Source of the DNA: Actinomycetota bacterium
Lineage (GTDB): Bacteria; Actinomycetota; UBA4738; HRBIN12
Direction: 5' to 3'
DNA: 64,000 bases
Assembly (NCBI GenBank): GCA_040902745.1
Contig: JBBDWR010000012.1
Span: 44,171-108,170, forward strand
The notes beneath the pieces are model-generated. The model worked only from the letters and a program-made list of their open reading frames with translations, was not told the DNA's origin and made no database searches. Shown here one piece after another: positions 27,850 to 55,891 of this stretch. The translations under genes were made by a program, and so were the position numbers. The stretch's first letter is position 1, and each line of letters opens with the position of its first letter.

Positions 27850-27869
27850 GTAGATTGTCAACCGTTAAC
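27850..27869. promoter_or_regulatory. palindromic operator site (15/20)
   Basis: GTAGATTGTCAACCGTTAAC, about 75 nt upstream of the SBP start at 27775. Confidence 0.5.
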
Positions 27870-28824: not shown

Positions 28825-28903
28825 CGGTCGTTCCTGTCCCCGGGCTCATCGAGGGGCTACGGTAGGCCCCGCTACCTGCATTGACCGCCGCATCCTAGCA
28901 CCC

Positions 28904-28923
28904 CTAGACTGTCGACAGTCAAC
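28904..28923. promoter_or_regulatory. palindromic operator site (18/20), best match, in the GntR gene's own divergent promoter
   Basis: CTAGACTGTCGACAGTCAAC, between GntR (start 28824) and the aminotransferase (start 28988). Confidence 0.7.
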
Positions 28924-28987
28924 CGATGACGCTCCGCAGGGCGGCGCCCCGAGTGCGTGGCAGCGGGCACGAGGAGGTGCACTCTCC

Positions 28988-31624: not shown

Positions 31625-31655
31625 GTTCGCTCTCCTTCCACCGTGCCGTGCGCGA

Positions 31656-33371: not shown

Positions 33372-33453
33372 CAGGCGGAGGACGAGCAGTAACCCCGGCT
33401 TGTGTCGGAGGACGAACCGTTCGACCGAACTCGGCGGCCGGGACCGGTCGACC

Positions 33454-33481
33454 CCGGAGGATCCGCGGTCGATCCCTCCGG
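33454..33481 (-). other. stem-loop in the SBP-permease intergenic spacer
   Basis: CCGGAGGAT..ATCC(C)TCCGG imperfect 9-bp inverted repeat inside the 165-nt gap. Possibly an mRNA stability or processing element. Confidence 0.3.
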
Positions 33482-33536
33482 TCTGCGTCGACCGGACCAG
33501 CGTGTCGTCCTGGCTCAGCGCCTCACCCCGTCCCGC

Positions 33537-34646
33537 TCACGCGGCCTTGAACTCGCGCCACACCTGCTGCCAGGCATCGTAGTTCTCCGGGATCGTGTAG
33601 GGGATCGCGTTCTCGAAGCTCCCGGGATCCTCCAACCCGGCCTCCTCCACGATCTTCGGGTCGACCGCATCGAGCGTGTCCTGGTTGGAGACGAGGTAGA
33701 AGAAGTTCTCCGCCTGCCAGGCCTGCGTCTCGGGTTGCGCGTAATGATCGATCAACGCGTATGCCGCGTCGACATTCTCCGCGTTCGCGCCGATCCCGTA
33801 CCCGCAGGTCCACGTCAGCTGACCCTCGGAGGCGAGCGAGTACTCGACCGGCTCGCCCTCGGCCTTCAACGTCTCGGTCGATCCCTTGTAGCCGGGCGCC
33901 ACGACCACGATCTCGCCGGTCTTGAACAGGTTGGCTTGGTCCGCGTCACCTTTCACCAAGCTGCGGAGCAGTGGCTTCTTGTCGACCAGGAACTGCTTGA
34001 CCTGCTCCAGCTCCGCGTCGTCCAGGTCGAGCGGATCTTCGATGCCGAGCGCCATCGCAGCGACCGCGATCCCCGACAGTGGGTCGTCATCCAGGCCGAT
34101 CCGGCCCGAGTAGGCGTCGTCGAAGACGCTCGCGTACGAGTCGAACCCGGCGGGAACTTCTTCCTCGTTGTACATGATGCCGCTGGTGCCGCCGACCATC
34201 GGCGCGAGATACACCTCGCCGTCGACGGTGACCCCTTCTAGCTCCTTGAACGCCGGAAACATCTGGTCCCAGGCCTCGATCCGCGACGTGTCGATCGGCT
34301 GGAGCAGACCGAGGTTCACCATGCGGACGGTGTCCTCGACACACACGTTCACCACGTCTGCCTGGAACCCGCCCTGCAGCTTCGTCACGGTTTCATCCCC
34401 GCTCGCGAAGGCAGCGGTACGGACGTCCACGTCCGGGTTCGCCTCCTCGAACGGGTCGAGCAGCTCCGGCTCGAAGGCGTCCTCGTACGCGAAGAAGGTG
34501 AGGGAGCCCGAGACCTGTCCGGGATCGGCCGACTCTCCATCGCCGGACCCCGGCGCCGAGTCGCTGCTGCACGCCGCGGCCACCACCATCAGAACAGATA
34601 CAACGACGATCGAGCGCGCGGTCGTACGAGTACGTGGGGCAGTCAT
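33537..34646 (-). CDS. PotD-like substrate-binding lipoprotein (paralogue 2 of 3)
   Basis: Start ATG 34644-34646 (MTAPRTRTTARSIVVVSVLMVVAAAC lipobox). ATGA overlap with the M20 gene stop. Confidence 0.85.
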   Translation of the reverse strand: MTAPRTRTTARSIVVVSVLMVVAAACSSDSAPGSGDGESADPGQVSGSLTFFAYEDAFEPELLDPFEEANPDVDVRTAAFASGDETVTKLQGGFQADVVNVCVEDTVRMVNLGLLQPIDTSRIEAWDQMFPAFKELEGVTVDGEVYLAPMVGGTSGIMYNEEEVPAGFDSYASVFDDAYSGRIGLDDDPLSGIAVAAMALGIEDPLDLDDAELEQVKQFLVDKKPLLRSLVKGDADQANLFKTGEIVVVAPGYKGSTETLKAEGEPVEYSLASEGQLTWTCGYGIGANAENVDAAYALIDHYAQPETQAWQAENFFYLVSNQDTLDAVDPKIVEEAGLEDPGSFENAIPYTIPENYDAWQQVWREFKAA

Positions 34647-35785
34647 ACCGCTGTCTCCTTCTGGGTCGTCGGTGCCGCCGCCAGGGATCCGACGTCGGCG
34701 ATCAGTGCGGAGAAGACACGAGCACATCGGACAACCTCTCGGACGTCGATGTGCTCGTCTGGGTGGTGAGCCGTCCGCAGGTGTCCAGGGCCGAAGACGA
34801 TGACCTCGGAGTGCGACCGATCGGAGAAGCTGTGTGCGTCGGTCCACGAGGGCATCCGTGTGTAACCGGGCTCACGGCCGATCGCGCTTTGGCTCGCTCG
34901 TGCCAGCGCTCGCGGGAGCGCGGCTCCGGGGGAGGTCTCCCACCATCCGCCCGAGTCCTTGAGTTGGAACGTCGCGTCGGAGGCGGCGCAGCGCTCCTCG
35001 ATCTGGCGCCGCACCTCGTCCAGGCTCGGCTCACCGAAGACTCGGGCCGACAGGTAGAAGTCCGCTCGGTCCGGGATCGCGTTCACGGGCTGCGCGGAAT
35101 GCATCCGTTGCACCGAGGTCATGTTGCGCCCGGCGATAGGATGCTCGTGCGTCGTGAACGGCAGCGTCTGCAGCTCAAGGAGCAGACGGGCGGCCTTCTC
35201 GACGGCGTTGTCCCCCTCCTCGATCAGCGAGCCGTGCACCGACCGACCGCCGACCCGCACCCAACCGTCGACGAACCCGGTCTCGGTGAGCGCGATATCG
35301 AGCTCGGTGCCCTCCGAGGCGACCACGAAGCGCGGACGCAGGTTGTCGGCCATCGACCGCGACCCCTTGCCCCCGATCTCCTCGTCGACGACGAATCCGA
35401 GCGCCACGGGCAGACGCTCGAACTCGACGCCGCTCTCGCGCGCCAACACAGCACCGAGGAGGATCGCCACGGCGCAGCCTTTGTCGTCCTGTGCGCCGAG
35501 ACCGCGCACGATCGTCCCGTCGACCCGCGCGCGGCCCGCCCAGTCCCACGTGGGGACGATCGTGTCGATGTGCGCGGTCAAGAGCAGATCCGGACGATCG
35601 TCGTGACCGACCAGCACGTTGGGCCCGGCGCCGGCGACCGACTGCACCTGGACGGGGAGATCGAGCTGGGAGCACCGTCCGGCGAGGTACTCCATCGCCT
35701 CGTGCTCCTGGTCGGAAACCGACGAGATCTCGACCAGGCGGACGAGTTCCTCGGTTGCCCAATCGATCGCGGCCGCGTCTTCCAC
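34643..35785 (-). CDS. M20-family metallohydrolase (ArgE/DapE/amidohydrolase type), paralogue A
   Basis: GTG start after AGAGGGGGA. LLLTAHIDTIVP..GLGAQDDKGC..VVDEEIGGKGS..WTDAH. Confidence 0.85.
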   Translation of the reverse strand: MEDAAAIDWATEELVRLVEISSVSDQEHEAMEYLAGRCSQLDLPVQVQSVAGAGPNVLVGHDDRPDLLLTAHIDTIVPTWDWAGRARVDGTIVRGLGAQDDKGCAVAILLGAVLARESGVEFERLPVALGFVVDEEIGGKGSRSMADNLRPRFVVASEGTELDIALTETGFVDGWVRVGGRSVHGSLIEEGDNAVEKAARLLLELQTLPFTTHEHPIAGRNMTSVQRMHSAQPVNAIPDRADFYLSARVFGEPSLDEVRRQIEERCAASDATFQLKDSGGWWETSPGAALPRALARASQSAIGREPGYTRMPSWTDAHSFSDRSHSEVIVFGPGHLRTAHHPDEHIDVREVVRCARVFSALIADVGSLAAAPTTQKETAV

Positions 35786-35868
35786 GCCTGTCCCCCTCTG
35801 GAGGGGTGCCCGGCGCCGGTGTGAGCCGCTGCGGGTGCGCCCCTCTTCGCCCTGAAGGCGAGCCTAGG

Positions 35869-38675: not shown

Positions 38676-39539
38676 CTATGTGACGTCGGGACGGTGCAAG
38701 GGCTGCCCCTTCACACCCAGATCAGCGATCGCCAGGTAGTCCTCACCGACGTTCGCCGTCACCGCGCGATCGAGCGCGTCACCCACGAAGCACATGTTCG
38801 TCGGCGAGTTCAGCCGTTTCGCCTCCCAGTCGTCGACGACGACCTCGAGGGTGCCGTCCGGACGCAGCACGTCCAGGCGGTCGGGACGGTAGTAGGCGAT
38901 GTACATGTTCCCCTCGTTGTCGAACACCAAGCCGTCGGGCACCGTCCGGGCCATCTCCACGACCAACTCACCCGAACCCGCCGAACCGTCTGGCTCGATC
39001 GGGATCCGCCATAGGCGCCCACCCGTGTGCACCTCTTCGGGGTGCGATTGCGCGACCCACAGGGCCGACCCATCCGGCGCCAATGCGCACCCGTTGGGAT
39101 ACCCGCCCACGGCGTCCGACCACACGGACGTTTCGCCGCCCCCGGGCTCCACGCGGAACACCACGCCGTTCAGCGACGACGTCACGTACATGACCCCCGC
39201 CGCATCGAATACCGGCCAGTTCGGCTCGTCGATCGGCGTGCCGGGAGCTCCCGCCGTGTAGGTCTCGACCTTGCCCGTGTCGGGGTCGATCCGCGACACG
39301 TCCTGGCGCACGTAGTCGCACGCGTAGATGTGGCCCGCACCGTCGACCGCCACCCCGAGCACGACCCCGCCCGTGTTCGCCACCTCACGCGAGGACCCGT
39401 CCAGGCCAACCGAGTAGATCTGTCCTCCCTCGCCGCCACAGTAGATGCGGCCGGCGAGCGGATCCCAACACAGCCCTTCCGGGTGCTGCAGGTCCCCCGC
39501 CAACGGCGAGAAGACCTCCGGTGCGAACAGCGCGTCCAT
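38676..39539 (-). CDS. SMP-30/gluconolactonase/LRE-like beta-propeller hydrolase
   Basis: 287 aa. PEGLCWDP..GRIY..G.IY.., YPNGCALAPDGSALWVA, VPDGLVFDNEGNMYIA. Confidence 0.8.
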   Translation of the reverse strand: MDALFAPEVFSPLAGDLQHPEGLCWDPLAGRIYCGGEGGQIYSVGLDGSSREVANTGGVVLGVAVDGAGHIYACDYVRQDVSRIDPDTGKVETYTAGAPGTPIDEPNWPVFDAAGVMYVTSSLNGVVFRVEPGGGETSVWSDAVGGYPNGCALAPDGSALWVAQSHPEEVHTGGRLWRIPIEPDGSAGSGELVVEMARTVPDGLVFDNEGNMYIAYYRPDRLDVLRPDGTLEVVVDDWEAKRLNSPTNMCFVGDALDRAVTANVGEDYLAIADLGVKGQPLHRPDVT

Positions 39540-39564: not shown

Positions 39565-40023
39565 CTACGTCTCGCCGCGTGCCTTCTTCATCGCTGCCTT
39601 GACCTCGTCGGTGTCCAACGTCATCTCGAGGAACCCGACCTGCTCTTCGTAGACCGACGCATCGGCCTGCTCTTTCACCTCGTATTCGAAGATGTGCAAC
39701 ACGGAGAGCCCCAACTGGACTCCCGCCAACGGACCCACCCAGGCCGGATCTCCGTCCCGCACGGTCTCGGCCGCGACTTCGACCGCTTCCGCGTCGGCCG
39801 CGCCGAGCATCACGACGAGGTTCTCGTCACCGTGCTCGTCGACGATCCGTTTGATCAACGCCTGGTTCTCCGGGTCCATGGCGCCGGACGCCGTTCAGAC
39901 GAAGCACTCCGTGCGGACCTCGATCACCTCGGCGCCGGCGCTCTTCGCCACCTCGGCGATCGCCTCGCCGGGTACGGAGTCGCGCTCGCCGAGGGCGATC
40001 ACCTTCTTGCCTTTCAGCTCCAT
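39565..40023 (-). CDS. grdA: glycine/sarcosine/betaine reductase complex selenoprotein A (GrdA) with in-frame UGA = Sec43
   Basis: Reading through TGA 39895-39897 gives [83 protein letters not shown]. This matches the GrdA CFVUTAAGAMD core as I remember it. The ORF track shows only the post-UGA part, 39565..39879. Confidence 0.85.
39856..39886 (-). promoter_or_regulatory. candidate SECIS stem-loop downstream of the grdA UGA
   Basis: mRNA +9..+39 after UGA folds to a 10-bp stem (2 G-U pairs, one bulged A) with a 10-nt loop ACCCGGAGAA. An alternative is the 5-bp UCCGG/CCGGA hairpin. The exact fold is uncertain. Confidence 0.4.
39895..39897 (-). other. in-frame UGA selenocysteine codon of grdA
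   Basis: TGA sits in the conserved C-F-V-U-T context. The frame is continuous from ATG 40021-40023 to TAG 39565-39567. Confidence 0.8.
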
Positions 40024-40066: not shown

Positions 40067-40447
40067 TCAGGCGCCTTGGTCGCGAAGATGTTCGGGGACC
40101 GGCAGTCCCACGGCCGGTGCGCCGTCCAACAGTCGGCGGATCGCCGCTTCGATGTCGTCGGGCGTCGCGGCGTTGCTCGTGATGCGCTCCACCTCGACGC
40201 CGTCGCGCATCGTGATGTAGGCAGGCAGTCCCGCCACGCGAAGGTCCCGGCAGATCTTCCGGTTGTCCGGTGCGTTCACCTTCACGAGCGTCACCTCGTG
40301 CGCGTACTTTTCGCCGAGCGCCTCCACCGCGGGCATCAGCGCCAGACACGGCTGACACTCCGGTCCCCAGATGTCGACGAGGACGTGGCCCTCGTTGACG
40401 AGGTCGTCGAACTCCTCGACGGTCGCTTCGATCGCCATCGTGTGCAT
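40067..40447 (-). CDS. thioredoxin with atypical WGPECQPC active site
   Basis: ATG 40445-40447 after AGGAGGGGAGGGA. 126 aa. [28 protein letters not shown]. The long 5' ORF extension (to 41599) overlaps grdC and was rejected. Confidence 0.85.
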
Positions 40448-40473: not shown

Positions 40474-41793
40474 CTAGGCCTCGAGCGTTACGGACGCGCC
40501 GTCCCACAGCCGGGTGAGTCGGCCGAGGAACAGCGATCCCTTCGCGATCAACATCGTCGTATCGAGCTTGCCGGCCTGCATCCGCGCCAGCGCGTGCGGC
40601 AACCACGGCACCGCCGACGCGATGTGTCCCTGCGTCGGCGAGAACCCGGGCAACCCGTGCGCTCTCGCGAACCCGGCGATCTCGCTCTTGTCCATCTCGC
40701 CACGGACAACCCCGAGTCCCGCGAGCATCTTGTAGTTGCGGTCGGGAACGTCCCCGCCGCCCTGAGGCTCGGTGATCTCGGGGTTGTGGATCTCCACCGC
40801 GTACGTACCGATGTCGGAAACCCGCAGCCCCATCGCGTCCAGCGGCGCACCGACGAGCGACTCGAGCTGGCCCTGCTGCGCGTTGCCCACGCGCACCGGC
40901 ATGCGGCCGATCGCATCTGTGCGCAGCACGGGTCCGTTCGACCCGTCGGCCGGACCCAGCAGCACCGCCATCCCGGCGAGGACGTCCTCGATCACCGGGA
41001 ACCCCTTGTCGAGGGCGCCCTCGAACTTCATCCCGAGCTTGCCAAGCGACCCGCCCGCGACGAGCAGCACGCGCTCCTCGACCCCCGCCTCGATCAGGGC
41101 CGCGGCCACGGCCATCGCGTGCACGGGCGCGGCGCAGAACGACTTCACGTCGATCCCGCTGGCGTTCACGACCCCGCAGTGTTCGGCGACGGCCTTCGCG
41201 AGGTTGCCGCCTCCGCGCTGATAGCGATCGCCGATCGCCTCCTCTCCGCAGCCGATCGCGTGCGTGATCGACCCCGGATCCACGTCGCTGGTCTCGAGCA
41301 AGTGCCGCAGCGCATGCACGGCGCTCGCCTTGATCGTGTAGTTCTCCAGCAGCACGTGCGCCTGCAGCGATTCGTCGAGAGCGTGGGCGGGGGCGAACGC
41401 TCCCACGACCTCGCCGCCGGCGAACAGTCCGAGTTCGCCTTTGCCGGGATCGGGCTCGTCTTTGAGGCGCACCAACTCGAACTGATCGATCTCGGCGAGC
41501 AGCTCGTAGAAGCGGTTCTGCTCCATCACGTCGCCGAACGGTCCGGCCGGCGACGCGCCCTCGACGGGGTGTTGCCACCAGGTTCGCGGACGCTCCCACA
41601 GGTCATCGGGCGCCAGCGCCCCGACGAACACCTGGTTCGGCGGATAGGCGACCGCGTCCTCGTACGAGCGGAGCGCACCGAACAGTTCCGGCCACCGCGC
41701 CTGTTCGCGCCACGGCTTGGACCCGTACCGGACCAGATCAGGGACGTGCTCCAGCACGAACGACGCCGCGAGCACGGCGGCCCGTCTGCTCAC
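40474..41793 (-). CDS. grdC: glycine reductase complex component C, beta subunit-like (GrdC; thiolase/KAS-III-like fold)
   Basis: SFVLEHVPDLVRYGSKP..LRSYEDAVAYPPNQVFVG..GDRYQRGGGNLAKA..DVKSFCAAPVHA..LVAGGSLGKLGMKF..KGSLFLGRLT. GTG 41791-41793 (GGGAGG 6 nt upstream) overlaps the grdB stop (GTGA). ATG 41808 is an alternative. Confidence 0.75.
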   Translation of the reverse strand: MSRRAAVLAASFVLEHVPDLVRYGSKPWREQARWPELFGALRSYEDAVAYPPNQVFVGALAPDDLWERPRTWWQHPVEGASPAGPFGDVMEQNRFYELLAEIDQFELVRLKDEPDPGKGELGLFAGGEVVGAFAPAHALDESLQAHVLLENYTIKASAVHALRHLLETSDVDPGSITHAIGCGEEAIGDRYQRGGGNLAKAVAEHCGVVNASGIDVKSFCAAPVHAMAVAAALIEAGVEERVLLVAGGSLGKLGMKFEGALDKGFPVIEDVLAGMAVLLGPADGSNGPVLRTDAIGRMPVRVGNAQQGQLESLVGAPLDAMGLRVSDIGTYAVEIHNPEITEPQGGGDVPDRNYKMLAGLGVVRGEMDKSEIAGFARAHGLPGFSPTQGHIASAVPWLPHALARMQAGKLDTTMLIAKGSLFLGRLTRLWDGASVTLEA

Positions 41794-43097
41794 GCGGACA
41801 CCTCCCACACGGTCGCCGGCTCCACGTCGGTCTCAACCATCTCGAGCGCGCGTTCCACGATCTTGGTGCGCAGTGCCACTTCTTCCTCCTCGTCCAGCGA
41901 CGGATCCCCGGTCGGGTTCGTGATCGCCGGCCCTCGCACGATCCGGCTGGCTCCCGCCATCTGTGCGATCGTCGGCAACGACGTGATCGTCGCCACCGGG
42001 ATGCCTTTCCGTTCGATCTCTTTCGCAAGCGTCGCCCCGCAACGCGTCCCTGTGCCTCAGGTGCCGGTCAACACCACCGCCTGGACTCCGGCATTGACCA
42101 GCTCGGCCGCGATCTCCTGGCCGAAGCGCGTCGCGGACGCCACGGGCGTGTCCACGCCCGTCGTCGTGTAGAAGGTCGGATGCAACCGGCCGATCCGTCC
42201 CTGGGTCTCCAGCCTTCGCACCGCGTCCAGCGGCACGAGCCGATTGGGATCGGCATTCCCAGCGGTCGTGTCGAAACCTCCGTGGACGGTTTCGTAGGCA
42301 TCGGCCGACATTGAGGCCACTCCGTCGATGGGATAGGCCAGCCAGGCGTGCGCCCGGCGAGAGACGAGGTGATCCGGGTTGCCCTGGGGAACACACCCAG
42401 CCTCCGACACGAGCGCCACCAGCGCCTCGCTCACGTCCGGCACCGGCGACGCCGGCGGCACGACTTCGAACGCAGGCGCCACTTCTGTCTCGAAGGCCTC
42501 GCCGCGGAGCTTGGCGAGCACCAGATCGAGGGCCCGGTCGGCTCCCGACCGATCGACGACCTCGTTGCGTCGGATCCCCCGGGGCAGGTAGCCCGCCTCT
42601 TCTGGCGAGCCCGGGTCGCGCCCCTCGGCGAGCGCCACACCGATGGCGGCGAGCACGGGAAGCGCGTCCTTCATCCCCGCGACGTTCGCGGTGGTCGGAA
42701 CGACGTAGGCACCCCCCTCGGCGGCGATCACCCCGGGGTTCTCGGGGAACATCGCCGTCACGACGGGGATCCCACGTCGCGAGGCCTCGCGGGCGAGCAT
42801 CCCGCAGGCGTAGCCGTAGCGGCCCGAGTTGAAGGCGGGCCCGCACACGAGTACGTCGGGCGCCTCCTCCTCCAGCCAGGCAAGCAGGGTTGCGAGCGCG
42901 GGATCCTCGTGTTCGGCGAAGTAGTCGTCTCCGCACGCCAGCGTGACGTCGACGGGCAGTCCCAGCGGCGTCAGCCCTCGGCCGGGTCCCTGCGGCCCCT
43001 CGAGGCGCACCGGCTCGTGACCTGCGGCCTCCTCGGCACCGAGACCTGCGAAGAATTGGTTCATGTAGTGGACGACGCGAACCGCGGCCGGGCTCAT
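41790..43097 (-). CDS. grdB: glycine/sarcosine/betaine reductase selenoprotein B family (GrdB/GrdF/GrdH) with in-frame UGA
   Basis: MSPAAVRVVHYMNQFFAGLGAEE.. N-terminus. Read-through of TGA 42057-42059 gives ..AVVLTGT-U-GTGTRCGATLAKEIERKGIPVATITS..NPTGDPSLDEEEE... The ORF track splits it into 42057..44066 and 41790..41996, which are in the same frame. 435 codons, typical GrdB size. Confidence 0.85.
42029..42045 (-). promoter_or_regulatory. candidate SECIS hairpin downstream of the grdB UGA
   Basis: GCGUUGC-GGG-GCGACGC (7-bp stem incl. one G-U). The stem starts 11 nt after UGA and the G-rich apical loop starts at +19, consistent with bacterial SECIS geometry. Confidence 0.55.
42057..42059 (-). 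other. in-frame UGA selenocysteine codon of grdB-family gene
   Basis: TGA sits in the conserved LT(S/G)T-U-G-T-x-T-R-C-G-A-T context. Confidence 0.8.
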
Positions 43098-44377
43098 ATC
43101 GTCACTCCCCGCAGTCTGCCGTCCCCGAGTTGCGTCGCGGCGTCGAGGTAGTGCAGCACCGGCACCTGTGCCGGTGCTTCGTGATCCGTTTCGCCGATCA
43201 CGCTCGCGGGCGTCCAGCCGTCCGCGCGCTCCAGAACGTTGCCGGTCGACACCAGTGCGTCTGCTTCTGCGACGTGGTCGGTCAGGCCCCCCTCTTCCGC
43301 GACGATGCCCACGGCGCGAACGCCGAGTTGTTCGCACGCGCGCAGGGTGAGCATCGTGTCGGTGTGGGAGTTGCCCAGCGAATACGTCGTGCAGATCGCG
43401 GCATCCGCGCCGAGTTCCTCGGCTGCGATGTGCGCCGCGCCGTCCGCCATGCGCCGTTTGTCGTCCGCGTCGTCCAGGTATCCCTGGGTCAAGACCGCGC
43501 CGGGACACACCAGCGCGGTGCCGTGCTCGTTTAACAGGCGATGCAGCAAACGCGACCGTTGGATCGTTCCCGTGCTCACGCGCGCCGCGGGTGAGTCGTA
43601 CGCGCCCGCGGTCAAGGCACCATCGAGCAGCGCTCTCGGATCGACGGCGCAGGGACTCACAAGGTCCACGGGCGCTCCGCGCAGGTAGGTCGTCAGCCCC
43701 GGTCCCTCGGCCGTGAACTGCAGGATCGGCACCACCACGGGCAGCTCCCCGGCCACTTCCCCGAGCGCGAACACGGACTCGGTATCCGCGTCGCTGTCCT
43801 CGGCCGTAGCCGAGGCCAGATCCCGGGCCGCTCGGAGCAGTGTGCGGCGGGCGGCCGCGTCGACGTCGGCGAGAGAGGCGCCCTGCGCGGCTACCAGCTC
43901 CAGGACCAGGTTGATCGTCGATCCCCACGGGGTCAGAGATGCCCCCGATCCGTCCATGTCGACGTAGCTGGCCGGGATCGGATCGTCGGGATCGATCAGC
44001 GCTCCCATGTCGAGCGTCGACAACACCGCGATGCCGTCGAGCCGATCTGTTCGTCCCGTGCCGCATAGCGCGTCGGCGGGGCCGAGCACGCCGGGGAAGG
44101 TCGCCGCAGGATCGTCCGCCTTGACCGACGGCACGACGGCGTCGAGGACGTTCGCGATACGAACGGAGTCACCGGGACGAACGACGTGCGCGCGCAACGA
44201 GCCGAGCGCGGGTTCGTCGGAGCACAGGGACTCGACGACGTCGAGGTCGATCTCGAGGAGAGGATCGCCGGGAGTGCGAGAGACGCGCCCTTCCCCATGG
44301 CGCACCTCCCGCACCGCCCGGACGTCGAAAGCCGCGACGGTGAGCGGCGACGCAGAGATGGTACCCGGTCTCGGCAT
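43094..44377 (-). CDS. glycine/sarcosine/betaine reductase component B alpha/beta-type subunit (GrdE/GrdG/GrdI family), lacking the canonical Asn-Cys autoprocessing site
   Basis: ATG 44375-44377. 427 aa. RPGDSVRIANVLDAV.P..K...FPG, LLDGALTAGAYDS.., TQGYLDDADDKRR.., NSHTDTML. ATGA overlap with grdB. The long 5' ORF extension was rejected. Confidence 0.75.
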   Translation of the reverse strand: MPRPGTISASPLTVAAFDVRAVREVRHGEGRVSRTPGDPLLEIDLDVVESLCSDEPALGSLRAHVVRPGDSVRIANVLDAVVPSVKADDPAATFPGVLGPADALCGTGRTDRLDGIAVLSTLDMGALIDPDDPIPASYVDMDGSGASLTPWGSTINLVLELVAAQGASLADVDAAARRTLLRAARDLASATAEDSDADTESVFALGEVAGELPVVVPILQFTAEGPGLTTYLRGAPVDLVSPCAVDPRALLDGALTAGAYDSPAARVSTGTIQRSRLLHRLLNEHGTALVCPGAVLTQGYLDDADDKRRMADGAAHIAAEELGADAAICTTYSLGNSHTDTMLTLRACEQLGVRAVGIVAEEGGLTDHVAEADALVSTGNVLERADGWTPASVIGETDHEAPAQVPVLHYLDAATQLGDGRLRGVTI

Positions 44378-44379
44378 CC

Positions 44380-46035
44380 TCACACCATCCCCCGCTCGGG
44401 GTCCCTCTGTGGCCTGCGTCGCGACCTGCGAGCATCTCGGAGGACCTCCCGGGCGCAATTGCTCCCGTTCGCTCCGGTCACCCCGCCTCCCGGATGTGTC
44501 CCCGCGCCGCACAGGTACAGGCCGCGAACCGGCGAGCGGTACGCGCCGTAGCCGCGGATCGGTCGCAAGAACAGCAATTGGTCCGGCGACATGTCGCCGT
44601 GCATGTGATGGCCGCCGGTGAGCGCGAGCCTTCGCTCGAGATCGAGCGGCGACAAGACCTCGCGATGCAGCACCGATCCCAAAACGTTGGGGAACGCTTC
44701 GCCCACGCGTTCGATCACGCGGTCGGCGATCGCGTCCTTGCGTTCGTCCCACGTTCCGTCGGCCAGTCGGTACGGCTGTGAACGCACGCCGACCGTGACG
44801 ACGTGCTGTCCCGGTGGCGCGAGCGAAGGATCCGACACACTCGGGATACACAGCTCGATGTGCGGCTGGTCGGCCGGTTCGCCCGCCTTCGCGTGTGCCT
44901 GGTCCATGTCGAGGTCCCGCAGGGGCTTCGTGAGCTGGATCAATGCCCGGTGGTAGGGCTGCTCACGGGCCCCGGCGGCCGATCCGGCCCCCGGGAGATC
45001 GTCGAACCCGGCCAGGCGCGGCAGCTCGGAAACGCCAAGGTTGATCTTCATGCTGGCTCCGTCGGTGCGGTAGGAGCGGATCGCCCCGACCACCTCGTGC
45101 GGGAGCTCGCGCTCCCCCACCAGGCCGAGGAATGTCCGTTTGGGATCGGCGTTGGACAACACGAGGTCGGCAAAGAGCTCCTCTCCCGAGCCGGCCAGCA
45201 CCACGCCCGTCGCCCGGCCGCCGCGGATGACGATCCGTTCCACCTCGGCGTCGGTGCGGATCAACACGCCGCGTTCGGTTGCGGCCTCCGCCATGAGCCT
45301 CGTGACCTCTCCCATGCCGCCGCGGACGAATCCCCAGTTCTGCTGGCCGACCCCGCTCGCGTGATCGTGCAACAACACGTACGCGGTGCCGAAGGCCTTC
45401 GGCCCGGCGAGTGTGTTGCTGATCGACTCCCAACCCAGTGCGGATTTCAGCTCGTCGGACTCGAACCACTCGTCGAGGTACTGCGCCATCGAGGTGGTGA
45501 ACAAGAAGCTCAGCTCGGTCAGGCGCTTGCGGTTGCGCAGGCCGAGTCGCGCGAACCACGCGAGCGCCGAAAGATCCCGCCTGCTCGGCGCGCGCGGGTC
45601 GGGCGGGGTCCGGTCGAACACCGGCAGGATCGCCTCCGCGAGGCCGGCCAACCGCTCCTCGAACCGTGGGTAGGCGCGCGCGTCCCGTTTGGAGAACCGC
45701 GCGATCTCCTCGCTCGCCGCTCCAACGTCACCGTGCAAGAATAGGTGCGCGCCGTCCGGATACAGGTTCAGCGAAGGCGTGGCCGCGTCGACGTGCAGGC
45801 CGCGTTCCCGCAGCCGGAAGTCCCGCCAGATCGCGGGCCGCAGCATCGAGAGTACGTAGGCGCCCGGAGACGCCCGGAACCCCGGCGCGAACTCCTCCGT
45901 GGTGCACGCGCCCCCGACCAGCTCGCGACGCTCGAGCACGCACACGCGAAGACCCTCGCGGGCCAACGAGAACGCGGCGACGAGTCCGTTGTGTCCGCCG
46001 CCCACGATGACGACGTCGTAGCGGTTGGTCGTCAC
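44380..46035 (-). CDS. FAD-dependent oxidoreductase, CrtI/phytoene-desaturase-like (PYROXD2-like) paralogue 1
   Basis: GTG start. YDVVIVGGGHNGLVAAFSLAREGLRVCVLERRELVGGACTTEEFAPGFRASPGAYVLSMLRP.. and C-terminal GLYLCGAGTHPGGGVTGANG. Its stop is 2 nt from the grdE-like start. Confidence 0.8.
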   Translation of the reverse strand: MTTNRYDVVIVGGGHNGLVAAFSLAREGLRVCVLERRELVGGACTTEEFAPGFRASPGAYVLSMLRPAIWRDFRLRERGLHVDAATPSLNLYPDGAHLFLHGDVGAASEEIARFSKRDARAYPRFEERLAGLAEAILPVFDRTPPDPRAPSRRDLSALAWFARLGLRNRKRLTELSFLFTTSMAQYLDEWFESDELKSALGWESISNTLAGPKAFGTAYVLLHDHASGVGQQNWGFVRGGMGEVTRLMAEAATERGVLIRTDAEVERIVIRGGRATGVVLAGSGEELFADLVLSNADPKRTFLGLVGERELPHEVVGAIRSYRTDGASMKINLGVSELPRLAGFDDLPGAGSAAGAREQPYHRALIQLTKPLRDLDMDQAHAKAGEPADQPHIELCIPSVSDPSLAPPGQHVVTVGVRSQPYRLADGTWDERKDAIADRVIERVGEAFPNVLGSVLHREVLSPLDLERRLALTGGHHMHGDMSPDQLLFLRPIRGYGAYRSPVRGLYLCGAGTHPGGGVTGANGSNCAREVLRDARRSRRRPQRDPERGMV

Positions 46036-46038: not shown

Positions 46039-46848
46039 CTAGGACGCCCTCACCGCACTGCCACGGCGCGCCACGTATTCGTCGCAGCGCGCGATCAGAT
46101 GGTCGCGCCCGAAGCTCGGATCGTGTCCTCCGTGAACCATGCGCACGGAGAACTCGCGGAGGCGCCGCATCGATGCCACGAAGTCGGGGATCGAGGAGTT
46201 CGGTAGCTCGTCCAGCAGTTCGTCGTCCCGATAGACGGTGTCGCCGGAGAACAAGGTCCCCGTCGCCTCGTCGAACAGCACCATCGAGCCCTGGGTGTGG
46301 CCGGGCGTGTGGAACACGGTGAAGGAACGGTCCCCGAGGTCGACGGTGTCGCCTTCGGTGACGGTGCGGGTCGGCTCGGTGGCGATCAGCGAATATGACG
46401 ACAGTTCGTAGCCGGGCGAGGGCACCGCGTCGATGAACGAGTCCGGCAACGGTGTGCCGTCCTTGGTCAGGGCGTCCTGGAAGTCCTGCGGCATCTCCGA
46501 GGGGATCAGCGTCCCTCCGTCTCGCGCGTTGGCCACGTCCGGAGCTTCCAGCTCGTGGGCGATCCGCTCGTCGAACTCGTGCAGTCCGCCCATGTGGTCG
46601 CTGTGCGCGTGCGTCACGACGGCGATGATCGGCTTGCCCGGATCGGGGCGCAGCGCGTCGACGAACGGCTTGAGCGGAGCGACACCGTTCGCCGTGTCGA
46701 CGAGCAGATCGGCGTCCCGGCCGGGAACAAGCCACACGTTGCCGCGGATCCATGCGTACATGTGCGGCTCGTTGATGCGGAACACGCCGGGCTCGACTTC
46801 GACGGCCTCGAACCACGCCTCGTCGACCGGCAGCGATGATGCGCCCAT
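46039..46848 (-). CDS. MBL-fold metallo-hydrolase
   Basis: ATG 46846-46848 after AAGGGAGG. THAHSDHMGG (HxHxDH), HTPGHTQGS. Confidence 0.85.
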   Translation of the reverse strand: MGASSLPVDEAWFEAVEVEPGVFRINEPHMYAWIRGNVWLVPGRDADLLVDTANGVAPLKPFVDALRPDPGKPIIAVVTHAHSDHMGGLHEFDERIAHELEAPDVANARDGGTLIPSEMPQDFQDALTKDGTPLPDSFIDAVPSPGYELSSYSLIATEPTRTVTEGDTVDLGDRSFTVFHTPGHTQGSMVLFDEATGTLFSGDTVYRDDELLDELPNSSIPDFVASMRRLREFSVRMVHGGHDPSFGRDHLIARCDEYVARRGSAVRAS

Positions 46849-46859: not shown

Positions 46860-48032
46860 TCAGCGCGACCGGCCCGCGGGTGACGTGTCCCGCCGGCGGG
46901 TCGCATCGGCGACCAGCTGGTCGGAATCGGACAGCAGGTTCGCGAGCACGCGCGCGCACTCCACCACGTCGTGGAGGGCCACGTGCTCGTCGGGTCGGTG
47001 CGCATTGCGCAGGTGCCCGGATCCGAACACCACGGTGTCGGATCCGGCGATGTCGACGAAGTTGTGCGCGTCGGTCCAGGCGAGCATCCCGTGCTCGCCC
47101 GGCTCGGTACCCCGCACGGACGCGATCGCGCTTCGCATCGCGCCCGCCAGGGGGGCATCGGGCGGGGTCTCGAACGGCTCGGAGATCTCCACGACGTCGA
47201 TGCGGGCATCGTAGCCCGCGGCGATCGTTCGCACTTCGGTGAGCACGTCTGCCGCCGACGGGCCGCCGGCGGTCACCCGGATATCCACGTGGAGCTCGGC
47301 ACGCTCCGGAACGACGTTGAGCCGCTGTCCGCCGTGCAGTTCCCACAACATCGGGAAGTTGCGCCCGAGCGTGCGGTGGGTGTGGGAGGTGAAGTCGGCG
47401 CGCTGCAGGTCGGTCGCGAACGCGACGGCCTTCTCGAGAGCGTTGTCACCTTCCTCGCGCAGGGCGCCGTGCACGGCTCGGCCTTCGAACCGCGCCCAGA
47501 ACTCCGTGAACCCGGCCTCGGCGAGCCCGAGATCCAGCTCAGTGCCTTCGAGCCCGACAACCATCGCCGGACGCAGGTCGTCCGCCATCCGCATCGACCC
47601 CTTGCCACCGACCTCCTCGTCGACGCACAGGCCGATCCCCACGGGCATGTGTGCGAGATCGACCCCGTCGTCGAGCGCCATCTGGAAAGCCAGCATCGCG
47701 GCGACAACGCACCCCTTGTCGTCCTGGGCGCCGAGGCCGTAGAGGAGATCCCCTTCGAGGGTCGCGACCGGCGTGTGATCCCATTCCGGCCGGATCGTGT
47801 CGACGTGTGCGGTAAGCAGCAGTCCGGGAGACCGATCCCACCCGACCAGGAGGTTGTCCGCCGAGCCCTCCACCTGCTGGCGCGTGGACGGGAATCCCAG
47901 CTCCTTGGCCCGGCTCTCCAGGTAGGACACGATCTCATGCTCCTCGTCGGAGTACGAGGTGATCTCCACCTGGCGAACGAGCTCCTCACGTGCCCAATCG
48001 AGCGCGACCGCGGTTTCCACGGCAGATAGCAT
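46860..48032 (-). CDS. M20-family metallohydrolase, paralogue B
   Basis: Aligns by eye with 34643..35785 (LDWAREELVRQVEITSYSDEEH, LLLTAHVDTIRP, GLGAQDDKGC, CVDEEVGGKGS). Start is ATG 48032 or GTG 48020. No SD before either. Confidence 0.8.
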   Translation of the reverse strand: MLSAVETAVALDWAREELVRQVEITSYSDEEHEIVSYLESRAKELGFPSTRQQVEGSADNLLVGWDRSPGLLLTAHVDTIRPEWDHTPVATLEGDLLYGLGAQDDKGCVVAAMLAFQMALDDGVDLAHMPVGIGLCVDEEVGGKGSMRMADDLRPAMVVGLEGTELDLGLAEAGFTEFWARFEGRAVHGALREEGDNALEKAVAFATDLQRADFTSHTHRTLGRNFPMLWELHGGQRLNVVPERAELHVDIRVTAGGPSAADVLTEVRTIAAGYDARIDVVEISEPFETPPDAPLAGAMRSAIASVRGTEPGEHGMLAWTDAHNFVDIAGSDTVVFGSGHLRNAHRPDEHVALHDVVECARVLANLLSDSDQLVADATRRRDTSPAGRSR

Positions 48033-48097: not shown

Positions 48098-49054
48098 TCA
48101 GCTGGGCAGGTATCGCTTCCGCAGGGCCGTGGTCGTGCGCGCAGGGAGAGCACCGGCGACGAGAAGCTCTTCGACGGTCACGGAGCAGAAGGTCGAGCGG
48201 TCCGCGAGTAGGCCTCGGTATCGGGCGCACGCGTCTTCGTAGTCCGTATTCCCGGCGGGGTGGACGACGACATACCGACCCCAACTCCACCTGCCGCTCG
48301 GATGCTGGAGCATCGACAGGAGCAAGAGATGCTCGAGCCACATCTCGGCGAGATCGGTTCTCCCTTTGACCGGCTCGATCGCTCCCGGCTTGAAGGCGCG
48401 CGACCTCTCGGCGACCTCGACATACCGCCGGAGGTTCCGCGGCTTCGGTGTCTCCGGCTTCGCTCGGTCGTGGTACCTGATGTCGAGACCCACGATCCCC
48501 TGCGTTCCGTCGCCGAGGTCGAGCGCGAATGCCGCATCGAACGAGACGAGGCTCCCGATGTACGCACGATCGAGGCGCCCCGGGGAGTGCTCGAAGATGA
48601 CGCCGGACACCGTGCCCGGCGCGTCCGGCCACCAGGTATGGACTGCTCGATCGGCGAGGTCGAGGTCGGCGGCCAGATCGCCGAACAGGTTGAAGGCCAT
48701 CGTCGGCGACCACAGCAGATCGGCCCACAGCCGCTGCCGATCGAACGTCTGGCGAGGTTCCTTGGTCGCCGTTCGAGCCGTCGCCGCGTTCCGTGCCCGG
48801 GCGGTCAGGAAGTTCGCGCCGGTCTCTCGGGCATAGTCGAGCGGGAGGCGGCTCCCGACCGGCCGCACGGCCCCTCCCTGCTTCGGCGCGATCGGCTGCG
48901 AACCGATCGGGTGCCCTTTTGCCTCACGCCACTGCGACTGGTGGTAGCGGACGCTGCGACGAAACTCGGTCATCTGCGGTCGCCCCGGCACCCGGTCGTC
49001 GGGCTGCCAGCAGTGCGCGACCTCGAGCTCCTGCCTCGACAGCTCCTCACCCAC
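48098..49054 (-). CDS. hypothetical protein (possible PD-(D/E)xK-like nuclease fold; weak)
   Basis: 318-aa ORF with normal codon bias. GTG 49054 or ATG 48973 start. No motif I can name. FEHSP..D..FDAAF..GLDIRYH is only suggestive. Confidence 0.5.
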   Translation of the reverse strand: MGEELSRQELEVAHCWQPDDRVPGRPQMTEFRRSVRYHQSQWREAKGHPIGSQPIAPKQGGAVRPVGSRLPLDYARETGANFLTARARNAATARTATKEPRQTFDRQRLWADLLWSPTMAFNLFGDLAADLDLADRAVHTWWPDAPGTVSGVIFEHSPGRLDRAYIGSLVSFDAAFALDLGDGTQGIVGLDIRYHDRAKPETPKPRNLRRYVEVAERSRAFKPGAIEPVKGRTDLAEMWLEHLLLLSMLQHPSGRWSWGRYVVVHPAGNTDYEDACARYRGLLADRSTFCSVTVEELLVAGALPARTTTALRKRYLPS

Positions 49055-50716: not shown

Positions 50717-50857
50717 GTCTTCGTCCCGACCTTCGAACGTGCCTTCCCGGACTGTCGCATCCGGCCACCTCCCGGCTCCGGTCGGGGGGAGTGCGAACCG
50801 CCGTTCGGAGCCAGACCGGCGATCCGTGCCCTACTGGACCCTCCCCTGTCCAATGGT

Positions 50858-53264: not shown

Positions 53265-53290
53265 GTGCCCTCCTCTTTTCCCCGAACGGT

Positions 53291-54532: not shown

Positions 54533-54549
54533 GATGGTCGACAGTCTAC
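54530..54549. promoter_or_regulatory. palindromic operator site (16/20) overlapping the TTG start of decarboxylase B
   Basis: CAAGATGGTCGACAGTCTAC, in the 54-nt spacer between the two decarboxylase genes. Confidence 0.6.
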
Positions 54550-54586
54550 AGTCCGCCTGAAGGGACAGGGAAGAGGCTCTTCCCCA

Positions 54587-55861: not shown

Positions 55862-55891
55862 GTGCGCCAGGCTACCCGCAGGTCGAGGAGC

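What the first reader, a model, noticed from the sequence alone, without database searches (positions are those of the whole stretch)
41790..43097. GrdB/GrdH-family selenoprotein B split into two ORFs by an in-frame TGA with a well-placed SECIS-like hairpin
ORF 42057..44066 ends in ..AVVLTGT and ORF 41790..41996 is in the same frame 63 nt downstream. Read-through gives LTGT-U-GTGTRCGATLAKEIERKGIPV.., the conserved selenoprotein B active-site context. The hairpin GCGUUGC-GGG-GCGACGC (42029-42045) begins 11 nt after the UGA, and its G-rich apical loop begins at +19. The real start MSPAAVRVVHYMNQFFAG (ATG 43095-43097) gives 435 codons, the usual GrdB size.
Basis: partly seen in the sequence, partly recalled or inferred. 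Interest (0 to 1): 0.7.

Follow-up and report, generated by a model that had tools for sequence, protein, structure and literature searches.

The report
Selenocysteine GrdB-like reductase subunit, divergent clade
The two ORFs are one gene for a selenocysteine-containing subunit of a glycine-reductase-type enzyme, read through a UGA codon with the help of a conserved RNA hairpin; this is ordinary for the family, but the gene belongs to an unstudied soil-actinobacterial branch that lacks features needed for glycine reduction, so its substrate is probably different.

Summary
Window 41790-43097 (minus strand) is one 435-codon gene. Its in-frame TGA (42057-42059, residue 347) falls on the Sec/Cys column of the selenoprotein B family: TIGR01918 matches end to end at 432 bits, 71 relatives have TGA there, and five have Cys. 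The 7-bp hairpin at 42029-42045 is not significant as a single-sequence fold. Comparative evidence supports it strongly: 98% of cells pair across 71 loci, 3 of 7 pairs show compensatory changes, synonymous sites are frozen inside the stem, and the stem decays in some Cys-codon relatives. The gene sits in a translationally coupled operon, GrdE-like / GrdB-like / GrdC / thioredoxin / GrdA. GrdA carries its own in-frame TGA. The protein falls below every substrate-specific cut-off (GrdB, GrdF, GrdH, PrdB) and fails published GrdB and GrdF motifs. It has UxxGxxC instead of UxxCxxC. Its GrdE-like partner lacks the cysteines that generate the pyruvoyl group. No GrdD lies in the 64 kb window or near any relative of this clade. 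The clade (soil Actinomycetota, Dehalococcoidia) is uncharacterised and sits among amine-uptake and amine-catabolism genes. Verdict: a real selenoprotein gene and a new variant of a known kind; the substrate is unknown.

The parts
41790..43097 (-). GrdB-like selenoprotein B gene: 435 codons plus a TGA stop, with Sec at residue 347
   Evidence: PF07355 at 387 bits and TIGR01918 at 432 bits, full length. Translation. Third-position GC is continuous across the TGA.
42057..42059 (-). In-frame UGA decoded as selenocysteine, in the motif LTGT-U-GTGTRCG
   Evidence: TGA at this column in 71 of 71 genome loci. Cys codons at the same column in L081-L085.
42029..42045 (-). SECIS hairpin: 7-bp stem GCGUUGC/GCGACGC with a GGG loop, 11 nt after the UGA
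   Evidence: It is the centroid structure. 97% of cells pair in 37 actinobacterial loci and 98% in 71 family loci. Compensatory changes occur at 3 of 7 pairs, and 0 of 500 shuffles reach this. Wobble positions are frozen inside the stem. The stem is relaxed in Cys forms.
43094..44383 (-). GrdE-like protein B partner subunit, about 429 aa (start GTG 44383 or ATG 44377), lacking the processing cysteines
   Evidence: PF09338 at 189 bits. Only 116 bits on the GrdG model. The alignment shows GAYDSPAARV where classical GrdE has GN-C-VSACDKN. Overlaps at both ends: GTGA and ATGA.
40474..41793 (-). GrdC (component C beta subunit), 439 aa; its GTG start overlaps the GrdB stop (GTGA)
   Evidence: NF040746 at 509 bits, above the cut-off of 450. 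Junction.
40067..40447 (-). Thioredoxin with a CQPC active site
   Evidence: PF00085 at 59 bits. The best NCBIfam hit is the clostridial Grd-associated TrxA model, below its cut-off.
39565..40023 (-). GrdA selenoprotein A, 152 aa, with an in-frame TGA at 39895-39897 (Sec43, motif CFVU)
   Evidence: PF04723 at 204 bits, full length. NF040748 at 207 bits, above the cut-off of 130. TGA is conserved in all relatives.
44380..46035 (-). FAD-dependent oxidoreductase of the CrtI / amine-oxidase family, translationally coupled to the GrdE-like gene
   Evidence: PF01593 and PF01266. No NCBIfam equivalog is passed. Conserved next to the cassette in L081, L082, L166 and several genome loci.
46039..46848 (-). 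MBL-fold hydrolase, directly upstream in the same operon
   Evidence: PF00753. Syntenic in L081, L082 and L166.
46860..48032 (-). M20 (ArgE/DapE-family) amidohydrolase, the first gene of the apparent operon; its start is uncertain
   Evidence: PF01546 and PF07687. TIGR01910 below its cut-off. Syntenic in L081.
38676..39539 (-). SMP-30/gluconolactonase-like protein immediately downstream of GrdA
   Evidence: PF08450. Conserved after GrdA in L002, L003, L007, L014, L027, L071, L079 and L081.

Best explanation
Window 41790-43097 (minus strand) is a single gene for the selenocysteine-containing subunit of the substrate-specific 'protein B' of a glycine-reductase-type (Grd) complex.

Shown: UGA 42057-42059 lies on the family's Sec column. 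It is followed, after 11 nt, by a conserved 7-bp hairpin whose pairing is maintained by compensatory changes across the family.

Inferred from established knowledge of bacterial Sec insertion: SelB carrying Sec-tRNA(Sec) binds this hairpin while the ribosome sits on the UGA. Sec347 is then inserted and translation continues for 88 more residues.

Shown: the gene is translationally coupled to a GrdE-like partner and to GrdC. A thioredoxin and GrdA follow, and GrdA is a second UGA-containing gene.

Inferred by analogy with the Grd mechanism: Sec347 attacks the alpha-carbon of a carboxymethyl-type substrate X-CH2-COO-, releasing X. The carboxymethyl group passes as a selenoether to Sec43 of GrdA. 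Thioredoxin supplies the electrons, and GrdC handles the resulting acetyl unit.

Shown: this protein and its clade are not the glycine, sarcosine, betaine or proline enzymes as currently defined. They have UxxGxxC instead of UxxCxxC, and the partner lacks the cysteines that make the pyruvoyl group. No GrdD lies in the 64 kb window, or within about 8-10 kb (less on short contigs) of the second-clade relatives.

Inferred: the substrate does not need Schiff-base activation, as is the case for betaine and fluoroacetate. Given the conserved neighbours, it is probably an imported amine-derived compound.
For: Family membership and the Sec column.

Coding continuity.

SECIS evidence:
- The hairpin forms as the centroid structure.
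- In 37 actinobacterial loci, 97% of cells pair, against 23-59% in shifted controls. Pair 18/28 is UA 17, CG 15, UG 1, with no mismatch.
- In 71 family loci, 98% of cells pair. Three pairs have double changes (GC/UA, UA/CG/AU, UA/AU), covering 40 cells, and 0 of 500 shuffles reach this.
- Synonymous positions inside the stem are invariant, while those just upstream vary.
- In relatives where TGA has become TGC or TGT, the stem drops to 4 of 7 and 5 of 7 pairs in two lineages, and a wobble position that is invariant in Sec forms changes in a third.

Operon.

Divergent clade:
- NCBIfam scores are below all equivalog cut-offs.
- The published GrdB and GrdF motifs are not matched (motifs from PMC9751293).
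- The NJ tree separates this clade from the classical one.
- The GrdE-like alignment lacks the processing Cys.
- The partner scores 116 on the GrdG model, against 556-873 for classical partners.
- GrdD is absent from the window and from second-clade loci by tblastn and by profile HMM.

Precedent for such variants having other substrates: FarB/FarE and GrdI (PMC10838667).

Amine-related context recurs in independent relatives.
Against: - No tRNA-Sec, selA, selB or selD lies in the window, so the organism's Sec-decoding capacity is inferred, not shown.
- The hairpin alone is not thermodynamically exceptional, and Rfam reports nothing.
- Part of the covariation is tied to amino-acid changes (Thr/Val, Leu/Met, Cys/Ser) and to a few deep lineage splits, so the number of independent events is small.
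- Two Cys-codon relatives still keep a 7 of 7 stem.
- Absence of the processing Cys is an alignment-based inference. No biochemical data exist for any clade member.
- GrdD could be encoded elsewhere in the genome; the genome-wide scan was inconclusive.
- No SECIS could be defined for the co-operonic GrdA.
- The tree is a simple NJ tree without GrdH, PrdB or FarB reference sequences.
Confidence: 0.85

Rival explanations
1. It is an ordinary glycine reductase GrdB: glycine is reduced to acetyl phosphate and ammonia, and the protein is merely divergent in sequence because it comes from a distant phylum.
For: All core Grd components except GrdD are present and syntenic. The GrdB model still scores 407 bits over the full length. 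The Gaiellaceae subclade keeps the TxGNxTxV part of the GrdB motif. Many public annotations call relatives 'glycine reductase'.
Against: - The score is below the GrdB equivalog cut-off (407 against 602), and only 1 of the 6 published GrdB motif parts is present.
- The partner lacks both processing cysteines needed for the pyruvoyl group that activates glycine (PMC10838667).
- The motif is UxxGxxC instead of UxxCxxC (PMC13188914).
- No GrdD is nearby.
- Classical loci in the same analysis pass all these tests.
Confidence: 0.1
2. It is a betaine reductase (a GrdH/GrdI orthologue) that cleaves glycine betaine to trimethylamine and an acetyl unit.
For: The partner subunit is apparently unprocessed, as described for GrdI (PMC10838667). 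Several relatives are labelled 'betaine reductase' by JGI.
Against: - The GrdH model scores 370 bits against a cut-off of 775. That is lower than its scores on the GrdF and GrdB models, and lower than classical GrdB and GrdF proteins score on the GrdH model (526-577).
- The neighbourhood has PotD/PotF-type ABC transporters, aminotransferases and decarboxylases. It has neither the BCCT/OpuD transporter nor the TrxB seen with GrdHI (PMC6716910).
- No characterised GrdH sequence was available for the tree.
Confidence: 0.1
3. The TGA is a true stop or a nonsense mutation. The locus would then be a pseudogene, or would encode two separate polypeptides (346 aa plus a 68-aa GTG-initiated peptide).
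For: Gene callers split it this way here and in most public relatives. The genome also uses TGA as a normal stop, for example for this gene itself and for its neighbours.
Against: - TGA is at the identical column in 71 of 71 relatives across several phyla, and the only alternative seen there is Cys.
- The 20 codons between the TGA and the GTG are the most conserved of the family and carry coding-type GC3.
- The hairpin shows structure-preserving covariation.
- A second TGA sits at the known Sec position of GrdA in the same operon.
Confidence: 0.02

Closest known systems
Glycine reductase protein B (GrdB with the GrdE proprotein), e.g. Peptoclostridium acidaminophilum or Clostridium sticklandii; NCBIfam TIGR01917
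   Same: The fold family is the same (PF07355, TIGR01918) and so is the length, about 435 aa. Sec is at the same column and the SECIS hairpin is at the same offset. There is an adjacent GrdE-family partner, and the protein works with GrdA (Sec), GrdC and thioredoxin.
   Different: It scores 407 bits against the cut-off of 602. It fails the published GrdB motif. It has UxxGxxC, not UxxCxxC. Its partner has no Asn-Cys processing site, so no pyruvoyl group is expected. No GrdD is in the locus. The host is a high-GC soil actinobacterium, and the surrounding genes are for amine uptake and catabolism.
Betaine reductase GrdH/GrdI (NCBIfam NF040795)
   Same: It is a Sec-containing B subunit paired with an alpha subunit that is not a proprotein. 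This implies a substrate that needs no Schiff-base activation.
   Different: It scores 370 bits against the cut-off of 775. No BCCT betaine transporter and no TrxB are nearby. It clusters with neither the classical GrdB nor the GrdF branch in the tree.
Fluoroacetate reductase FarB/FarE of Synergistota (NF053623; PMC10838667)
   Same: The deviations from canonical protein B are of the same kind. The cysteine pattern after Sec is altered, and the alpha subunit lacks the two processing cysteines. This is a precedent that such variants act on a different carboxymethyl compound.
   Different: The FarE model scores only 68 bits against a cut-off of 675. The window keeps the second Cys (UxxGxxC). The Far operon's antiporter and radical-SAM genes are not part of this operon. 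The phylum and habitat differ.
Sarcosine reductase GrdF/GrdG (NF040794, NF040793)
   Same: GrdF is the best-scoring specific model for the B subunit (432 bits), and GrdG is the best-scoring one for the partner (116 bits).
   Different: Both scores are far below their cut-offs (800 and 780). The GrdF motif (IHGGYDR...TTGTGT) is absent. The partner lacks the processing site that GrdG has.
Bacterial SECIS elements (fdhF-type hairpin immediately 3' of UGA, bound by SelB)
   Same: It is a hairpin inside the coding sequence shortly after the UGA, with a small G-containing apical loop about 19 nt from the UGA. The stem is conserved by covariation.
   Different: The stem is short (7 bp) with a 3-nt loop and no bulged U was identified. 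No Rfam family matches it. SelB binding is untested.

Membership tests
Glycine/betaine/sarcosine/D-proline family reductase selenoprotein B (TIGR01918 / PF07355) | Full-length match to the family model above its cut-off | tested here: met
   TIGR01918 at 432 bits (cut-off 65), residues 7-432 against model positions 1-431 of 431. PF07355 at 387 bits.
Glycine/betaine/sarcosine/D-proline family reductase selenoprotein B (TIGR01918 / PF07355) | Sec (UGA) or Cys at the conserved active-site column | tested here: met
   The window TGA aligns with TGA in 71 of 71 genome loci and with Cys in P0002-P0006.
Glycine/betaine/sarcosine/D-proline family reductase selenoprotein B (TIGR01918 / PF07355) | Adjacent GrdE/PrdA-family partner gene, with GrdA in the system | tested here: met
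   PF09338 gene immediately upstream with an ATGA overlap. GrdA passes NF040748.
Glycine reductase GrdB (TIGR01917 equivalog) | Score at or above the curated equivalog cut-off (602.2 bits) | tested here: not met
   407 bits. Classical loci L030, L033, L037 and L074 score 617-714 in the same test.
Glycine reductase GrdB (TIGR01917 equivalog) | Published GrdB motif YxNx6GGE...CGD...GPxF[NF]AGRYG...AHGGxD[QTAP]...RV[IL]PxD...TxGNxTxV (PMC9751293) | tested here: not met
   Only the CGD part matches, 1 of 6. Most classical loci match the full motif.
Glycine reductase GrdB (TIGR01917 equivalog) | UxxCxxC motif at the active site (PMC13188914) | tested here: not met
   The window has U-G-T-G-T-R-C, i.e. 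UxxGxxC.
Glycine reductase GrdB (TIGR01917 equivalog) | The GrdE partner is a proprotein with the Asn-Cys self-cleavage site that gives a pyruvoyl group | tested here: not met
   Classical GrdE has SGN-C-VSACDKN. The window has AGAYDSPAARVS, with no Cys or Ser at the aligned site. Actual cleavage is not testable here.
Glycine reductase GrdB (TIGR01917 equivalog) | Protein C made of both GrdC and GrdD | tested here: inconclusive
   GrdC is present (NF040746 at 509 bits, cut-off 450). GrdD is absent from the 64 kb window and from all second-clade loci. The rest of the genome is unavailable, and the genome-collection scan was saturated by Bacillota and Synergistota.
Sarcosine reductase GrdF/GrdG | NF040794 at or above 800 bits for the B subunit, NF040793 at or above 780 bits for the partner, and the GrdF motif | tested here: not met
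   432 and 116 bits. The GrdF-specific motif parts are absent. True GrdF and GrdG loci pass.
Betaine reductase GrdH/GrdI | NF040795 at or above 775 bits | tested here: not met
   370 bits.
Betaine reductase GrdH/GrdI | Alpha subunit is not a proprotein (no processing Cys) | tested here: met
   No Cys at the processing site. The GrdI property is taken from PMC10838667. No GrdI sequence or model was available for direct comparison.
D-proline reductase PrdB | TIGR04483 at or above 300 bits; a protein of about 240 aa | tested here: not met
   82 bits over the C-terminal part only. The protein is 435 aa.
Fluoroacetate reductase FarB/FarE | Partner matches NF053623 (FarE) at or above 675 bits | tested here: not met
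   68 bits.
Bacterial SECIS element | Stem-loop shortly 3' of the UGA, conserved in structure across homologues | tested here: met
   7-bp stem 11 nt after the UGA. 98% of cells pair, 3 pairs show compensatory change, and 0 of 500 shuffles reach this. The stem is relaxed in Cys forms.
Bacterial SECIS element | Binding by SelB, and presence of selA, selB, selC and selD in the genome | not testable with these tools
   None of these genes and no tRNA-Sec lies in the window. The rest of the genome is not available.
Selenoprotein A GrdA (NF040748) | Equivalog score at or above 130 bits, with the CxxU motif and UGA at the Sec position | tested here: met
   207 bits. The motif is ECFV-U, with TGA at 39895-39897.

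The most novel reading that the evidence does not exclude
The window would represent a widespread, uncharacterised branch of Grd-type selenoenzyme complexes in soil Actinomycetota, related to Dehalococcoidia versions. On this reading it reductively cleaves a substrate other than glycine, sarcosine, betaine, proline or fluoroacetate. It would work without a pyruvoyl cofactor and possibly without GrdD, so the fate of the acetyl unit might differ from acetyl-phosphate formation. It would be wired into the uptake and catabolism of polyamine-like or other amine compounds through PotABCD-type transporters, class-III aminotransferases, Orn/Arg-type decarboxylases, a CrtI-like flavoprotein, and M20 and MBL hydrolases. 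Natural Cys-for-Sec variants within the clade would make it experimentally tractable.
Probability: 0.35. Interest if true: 0.7.

Novelty: new variant of a known kind. Interest (0 to 1): 0.45.

Why it matters
At the level of the finding as written, this is a correct rescue of a mis-split selenoprotein gene, together with a second one (grdA) in the same operon. Most public gene calls for its relatives are truncated at the same UGA, so the annotation problem is common.

The larger point is that the gene marks a whole clade of Grd-type complexes in abundant, mostly uncultured soil Actinomycetota. That clade fails the defining features of the characterised glycine, sarcosine and betaine enzymes. 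The fluoroacetate reductase precedent shows that such deviations can signal a new substrate.

If so, this clade would add a new reductive C-X cleavage reaction to soil carbon and nitrogen cycling. It would also add a selenium requirement to lineages not usually associated with Stickland-type chemistry.

The family-wide hairpin, with three covarying pairs and natural Cys-codon controls, is a clean comparative example of a SECIS embedded in a strongly conserved coding sequence.

Tried and rejected
- Single-sequence folding of the hairpin region gave z-scores of -0.2 to +0.8, so it is not evidence on its own.
- Rfam at gathering thresholds and ARAGORN over the whole window found no SECIS family, no tRNA-Sec and no other RNA.
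- GrdD was sought three ways. tblastn with a Desulfovibrio GrdD gave a best E of 0.22 in the window. A profile HMM of 10 GrdD sequences, run against all ORFs of the window and of the 85 loci then fetched (L001-L085), hit only the classical loci.
- A weak TrxB-like hit near 53.1 kb turned out to be the FAD-binding motif of a paralogue of the operon's flavoprotein, not a thioredoxin reductase.
- The MBL and FADox genes are adjacent in the same frame, which I suspected might be another read-through. The stop there is TAG, and the two are called as separate, overlapping genes in relatives.
- For the GrdA SECIS, single folds were inconsistent and RNAalifold gave no consensus. A hand-picked 5-bp stem pairs in 73% of cells, which is no better than shuffles or the -1 shifted control. 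It was rejected.
- PDB sequence searches for both protein B subunits found no relatives.
- Literature searches for Grd systems in Gaiellales, Thermoleophilia, other Actinomycetota or Dehalococcoidia, or for GrdD-less systems, found nothing relevant.
- Pseudogene and two-polypeptide readings were considered and rejected (see the rival explanations).
Full report
**1. What is in the sequence.**

The window is 67.5% GC. On the minus strand the mechanical ORFs 42057..44066 and 41790..41996 share a frame. The first ends ...AVVLTGT followed by TGA at 42057-42059. Translating 43097 down to 41790 in one frame gives a 435-residue product with a single internal TGA at codon 347. That TGA is followed by GTGTRCGATLAKEIERKGIPV... 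and then 67 more residues.

The ATG at 43095-43097 is preceded by GGGGAG and overlaps the stop of the upstream gene (ATGA). The terminal TGA overlaps the GTG start of the downstream gene (GTGA). Third-position GC in this frame stays at 0.80-0.85 from 43100 to 41800, straight through the TGA.

**2. Family and the Sec column.**

With Cys substituted for the TGA, the product matches Pfam GRDB (387 bits). It also matches NCBIfam TIGR01918, [quoted passage not shown], from residue 7 to 432 against model positions 1-431 of 431. That is one stretch, at 432 bits.

More than 1,800 homologues were found. The closest (65-78% identity) are almost all called as proteins of about 340 residues ending ...L[TS]GT, meaning they are cut at the same codon. 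Five full-length relatives have Cys there.

A scan of one genome per species returned 80 loci. Every one of the 71 family members in which the motif could be located has TGA at this column. The DNA of the Cys forms has genuine TGC or TGT codons.

**3. The hairpin.**

GCGUUGC-GGG-GCGACGC (42029-42045) starts 11 nt after the UGA and is the centroid structure of the region. Its energy is unremarkable against dinucleotide shuffles, with z between -0.2 and +0.8, and Rfam reports nothing. On its own it proves nothing.

Comparative data decide the matter:
- **Actinobacterial loci.** In a gapless alignment of 37 loci the stem pairs in 97% of cells, against 23-59% for shifted registers. The Arg codon wobble covaries with the first base of the opposite Thr/Val codon (U-A 17, C-G 15, U-G 1, no mismatch).
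- **Synonymous sites.** Third positions inside the stem (columns 15, 21 and 30) are invariant. Those just upstream (columns 6, 9 and 12) vary freely.
- **Whole family.** Across all 71 loci the same stem pairs in 98% of cells. Three of the seven pairs show compensatory double changes: G-C/U-A at 15-31; U-A/C-G/A-U at 18-28; and U-A/A-U at 19-27. The last accompanies a Cys-to-Ser change together with a synonymous GCA-to-GCU change. That makes 40 cells in all, and 0 of 500 shuffles reach it.
- **Natural control.** Where UGA has become a Cys codon, the constraint loosens. The stem has 4 of 7 pairs in L081/L082 and 5 of 7 in L085. In L084 an otherwise invariant wobble position changes. Only L083 is fully unchanged.

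This is the behaviour expected of a SECIS. SelB binding itself is inferred.

**4. The operon.**

Upstream lies a GrdE-family gene (PF09338). Downstream come GrdC (NF040746 at 509 bits, cut-off 450), a thioredoxin with a CQPC site, and GrdA.

GrdA is also split by an in-frame TGA, at 39895-39897, in the motif ECFV-U-TASGAMD. It passes its equivalog model, NF040748, at 207 bits against a cut-off of 130.

Further upstream are an M20 amidohydrolase, an MBL-fold hydrolase and a CrtI / amine-oxidase-like flavoprotein. The flavoprotein and the GrdE-like gene share a GTGA overlap. An SMP-30-like gene follows GrdA.

The five-gene core GrdE/GrdB/GrdC/Trx/GrdA is conserved in about 30 actinobacterial loci. 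The accessory genes recur in the closest sub-lineages. L081, an Actinomycetota MAG, has nearly the same gene order as the window. There GrdB is the Cys form while GrdA keeps its TGA.

**5. Which reductase?**

The protein is below every substrate-specific cut-off:

| Model | Score (bits) | Cut-off (bits) |
|---|---|---|
| GrdB (glycine) | 407 | 602 |
| GrdF (sarcosine) | 432 | 800 |
| GrdH (betaine) | 370 | 775 |
| PrdB (D-proline) | 82 | 300 |

In the same test, Bacillota, Synergistaceae, Desulfovibrio and Thermoanaerobacterales loci pass as GrdB, and two loci pass as GrdF. Dehalococcoidia, a betaproteobacterial locus and all the other actinobacterial members tested fail, like the window.

The explicit GrdB and GrdF motifs published in PMC9751293 match the classical loci. 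No member of the second clade matches either in full, and the window has 1 of the 6 GrdB motif parts.

An NJ tree splits the family into two deep branches. One holds the classical GrdB and GrdF proteins. The other holds Actinomycetota (including the window), Acidimicrobiales, Dehalococcoidia and a few other lineages.

Three further features travel with the second branch:
- **Active-site motif.** It is UxxG(xxC/S), instead of the UxxCxxC regarded as the GrdB signature (PMC13188914).
- **Partner subunit.** It lacks both cysteines of the GN-C-VSAC-DKN processing site that yields the pyruvoyl group. It scores 116-312 bits on the GrdG model, against 556-873 for classical partners.
- **GrdD.** None lies in the 64 kb window, or within about 8-10 kb (less on short contigs) of any second-branch locus. 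It is easily found in classical loci.

The same kinds of deviation were described for FarB/FarE, the fluoroacetate-cleaving variant, and for GrdI of betaine reductase (PMC10838667). The window's partner does not match FarE (68 bits against 675). The locus also lacks the BCCT transporter and TrxB context of GrdHI.

**6. Context.**

The rest of the window is dominated by these genes:
- PotD/PotF-type ABC transporters
- class-III aminotransferases
- an aldehyde dehydrogenase
- a second M20 enzyme
- two Orn/Arg-type PLP decarboxylases
- a paralogue of the operon's flavoprotein

The same gene types flank the cassette in independent relatives. In L166 they form one 11-gene run, and in L167 a PotABC transporter abuts the GrdE-like gene.

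This points to an imported amine-type compound, but it does not identify the substrate. No Sec-insertion genes and no tRNA-Sec are in the window.

**7. Interpretation.**

- **Shown:** this is one gene, UGA sits at the Sec column, a structurally conserved hairpin follows it, and the gene lies in a Grd-type operon with a second UGA gene.
- **Inferred from established knowledge:** SelB-dependent Sec insertion, and a Grd-type mechanism. In that mechanism Sec347 attacks a carboxymethyl substrate, the group is transferred to Sec43 of GrdA, thioredoxin provides the reduction, and GrdC handles the acetyl unit.
- **Inferred from the failed membership tests and the FarBE and GrdI precedents:** the substrate is probably not glycine or sarcosine and needs no Schiff-base activation.

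The rivals (ordinary glycine reductase, betaine reductase, pseudogene or two polypeptides) are less well supported, for the reasons listed under each.

**8. Limits.**

- The tree is a distance tree without characterised GrdH, PrdB or FarB sequences.
- Genome-wide absence of GrdD could not be tested.
- No SECIS could be defined for GrdA.
- No structure exists for the family in the PDB.
- No paper in the searchable library describes Grd systems in these actinobacterial lineages. That is absence of evidence within that library only.

**9. Verdict.**

As a selenoprotein gene it is ordinary for its family, and NCBI already names a close relative at family level. What raises it above routine is that it belongs to an uncharacterised variant clade with defined differences from all characterised members. 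I rate novelty as "new variant of a known kind", with moderate interest.

Noticed in passing
window 39565-40023 (-), TGA at 39895-39897: There is a second selenoprotein gene in the same operon. GrdA (152 aa) is split by an in-frame TGA at the CxxU site (ECFV-U-TASGAMD). The TGA is conserved in all relatives, including those where GrdB has switched to Cys. No conserved SECIS structure could be defined downstream of it.
   Followed up: yes
window 43094-44383 (-): The GrdE-like partner lacks both cysteines of the GN-C-VSAC-DKN self-processing site. It is the most divergent partner tested, at 116 bits on the GrdG model. It is predicted to be uncleaved and to have no pyruvoyl group.
   Followed up: yes
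window 1-64000; loci L001-L029, L041, L043-L070 (second clade): No GrdD (component C alpha) lies in the window or near any second-clade locus, although GrdC is always present. In classical loci GrdD directly follows GrdC. Whether GrdD is encoded elsewhere in these genomes is unknown.
   Followed up: partly
L081/L082, L083, L084, L085 (Cys forms P0002, P0004-P0006): Natural Cys-for-Sec replacements of the GrdB-like protein occur at three or more places inside the actinobacterial clade. In L081/L082 GrdA keeps its UGA while GrdB is the Cys form. These are useful natural controls and expression templates.
   Followed up: yes
window 51642-53723 (-), true start near 53200; 53291-54586 (-) and 54587-55975 (-): A paralogue of the operon's CrtI-like FAD oxidoreductase sits next to two tandem Orn/Arg/DAP-type PLP decarboxylase paralogues. 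The same decarboxylase-flavoprotein pairing lies directly upstream of the Grd cassette in L166.
   Followed up: partly
window 19775-35863: This stretch is an amine-catabolism island. It holds two PotABCD-like ABC transporter sets, two class-III aminotransferases (20840-22258 and 28532-30454; the latter ORF runs ~170 codons upstream of the aminotransferase match, true start not determined), an aldehyde dehydrogenase, a 3-hydroxyisobutyrate-dehydrogenase-like gene, a second M20 hydrolase and AsnC regulators. None passes a specific NCBIfam equivalog cut-off.
   Followed up: partly
L166 10001-11278; L167 10001-11290; most hits: Gene calls on public records split this gene into fragments of about 340 aa and about 70 aa, or keep only the first. 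GrdA is split into 42 aa plus 104 aa. This is a systematic annotation gap for the clade.
   Followed up: partly
L007, L014, L027, L041, L072, L077, L079 (MFD-labelled MAGs): The GrdB-like reading frame is interrupted by apparent frameshifts in several MAGs whose isolate names begin with MFD. These may be assembly indels rather than pseudogenes. L002 lacks the normal stop between GrdB and GrdC.
   Followed up: no
window 48098-49054 (-) and 49241-50830 (-): A PD-(D/E)XK nuclease-family gene and a PhoX alkaline phosphatase lie between the Grd operon and the decarboxylase/flavoprotein module. PhoX is also near the cassette in L081.
   Followed up: no
window 58191-62114 (-) and 62051-63430 (-): There is a large adenylate/guanylate cyclase-AAA-TPR (MalT-like) regulator of about 1300 aa, with a second cyclase-domain gene adjacent.
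   Followed up: no
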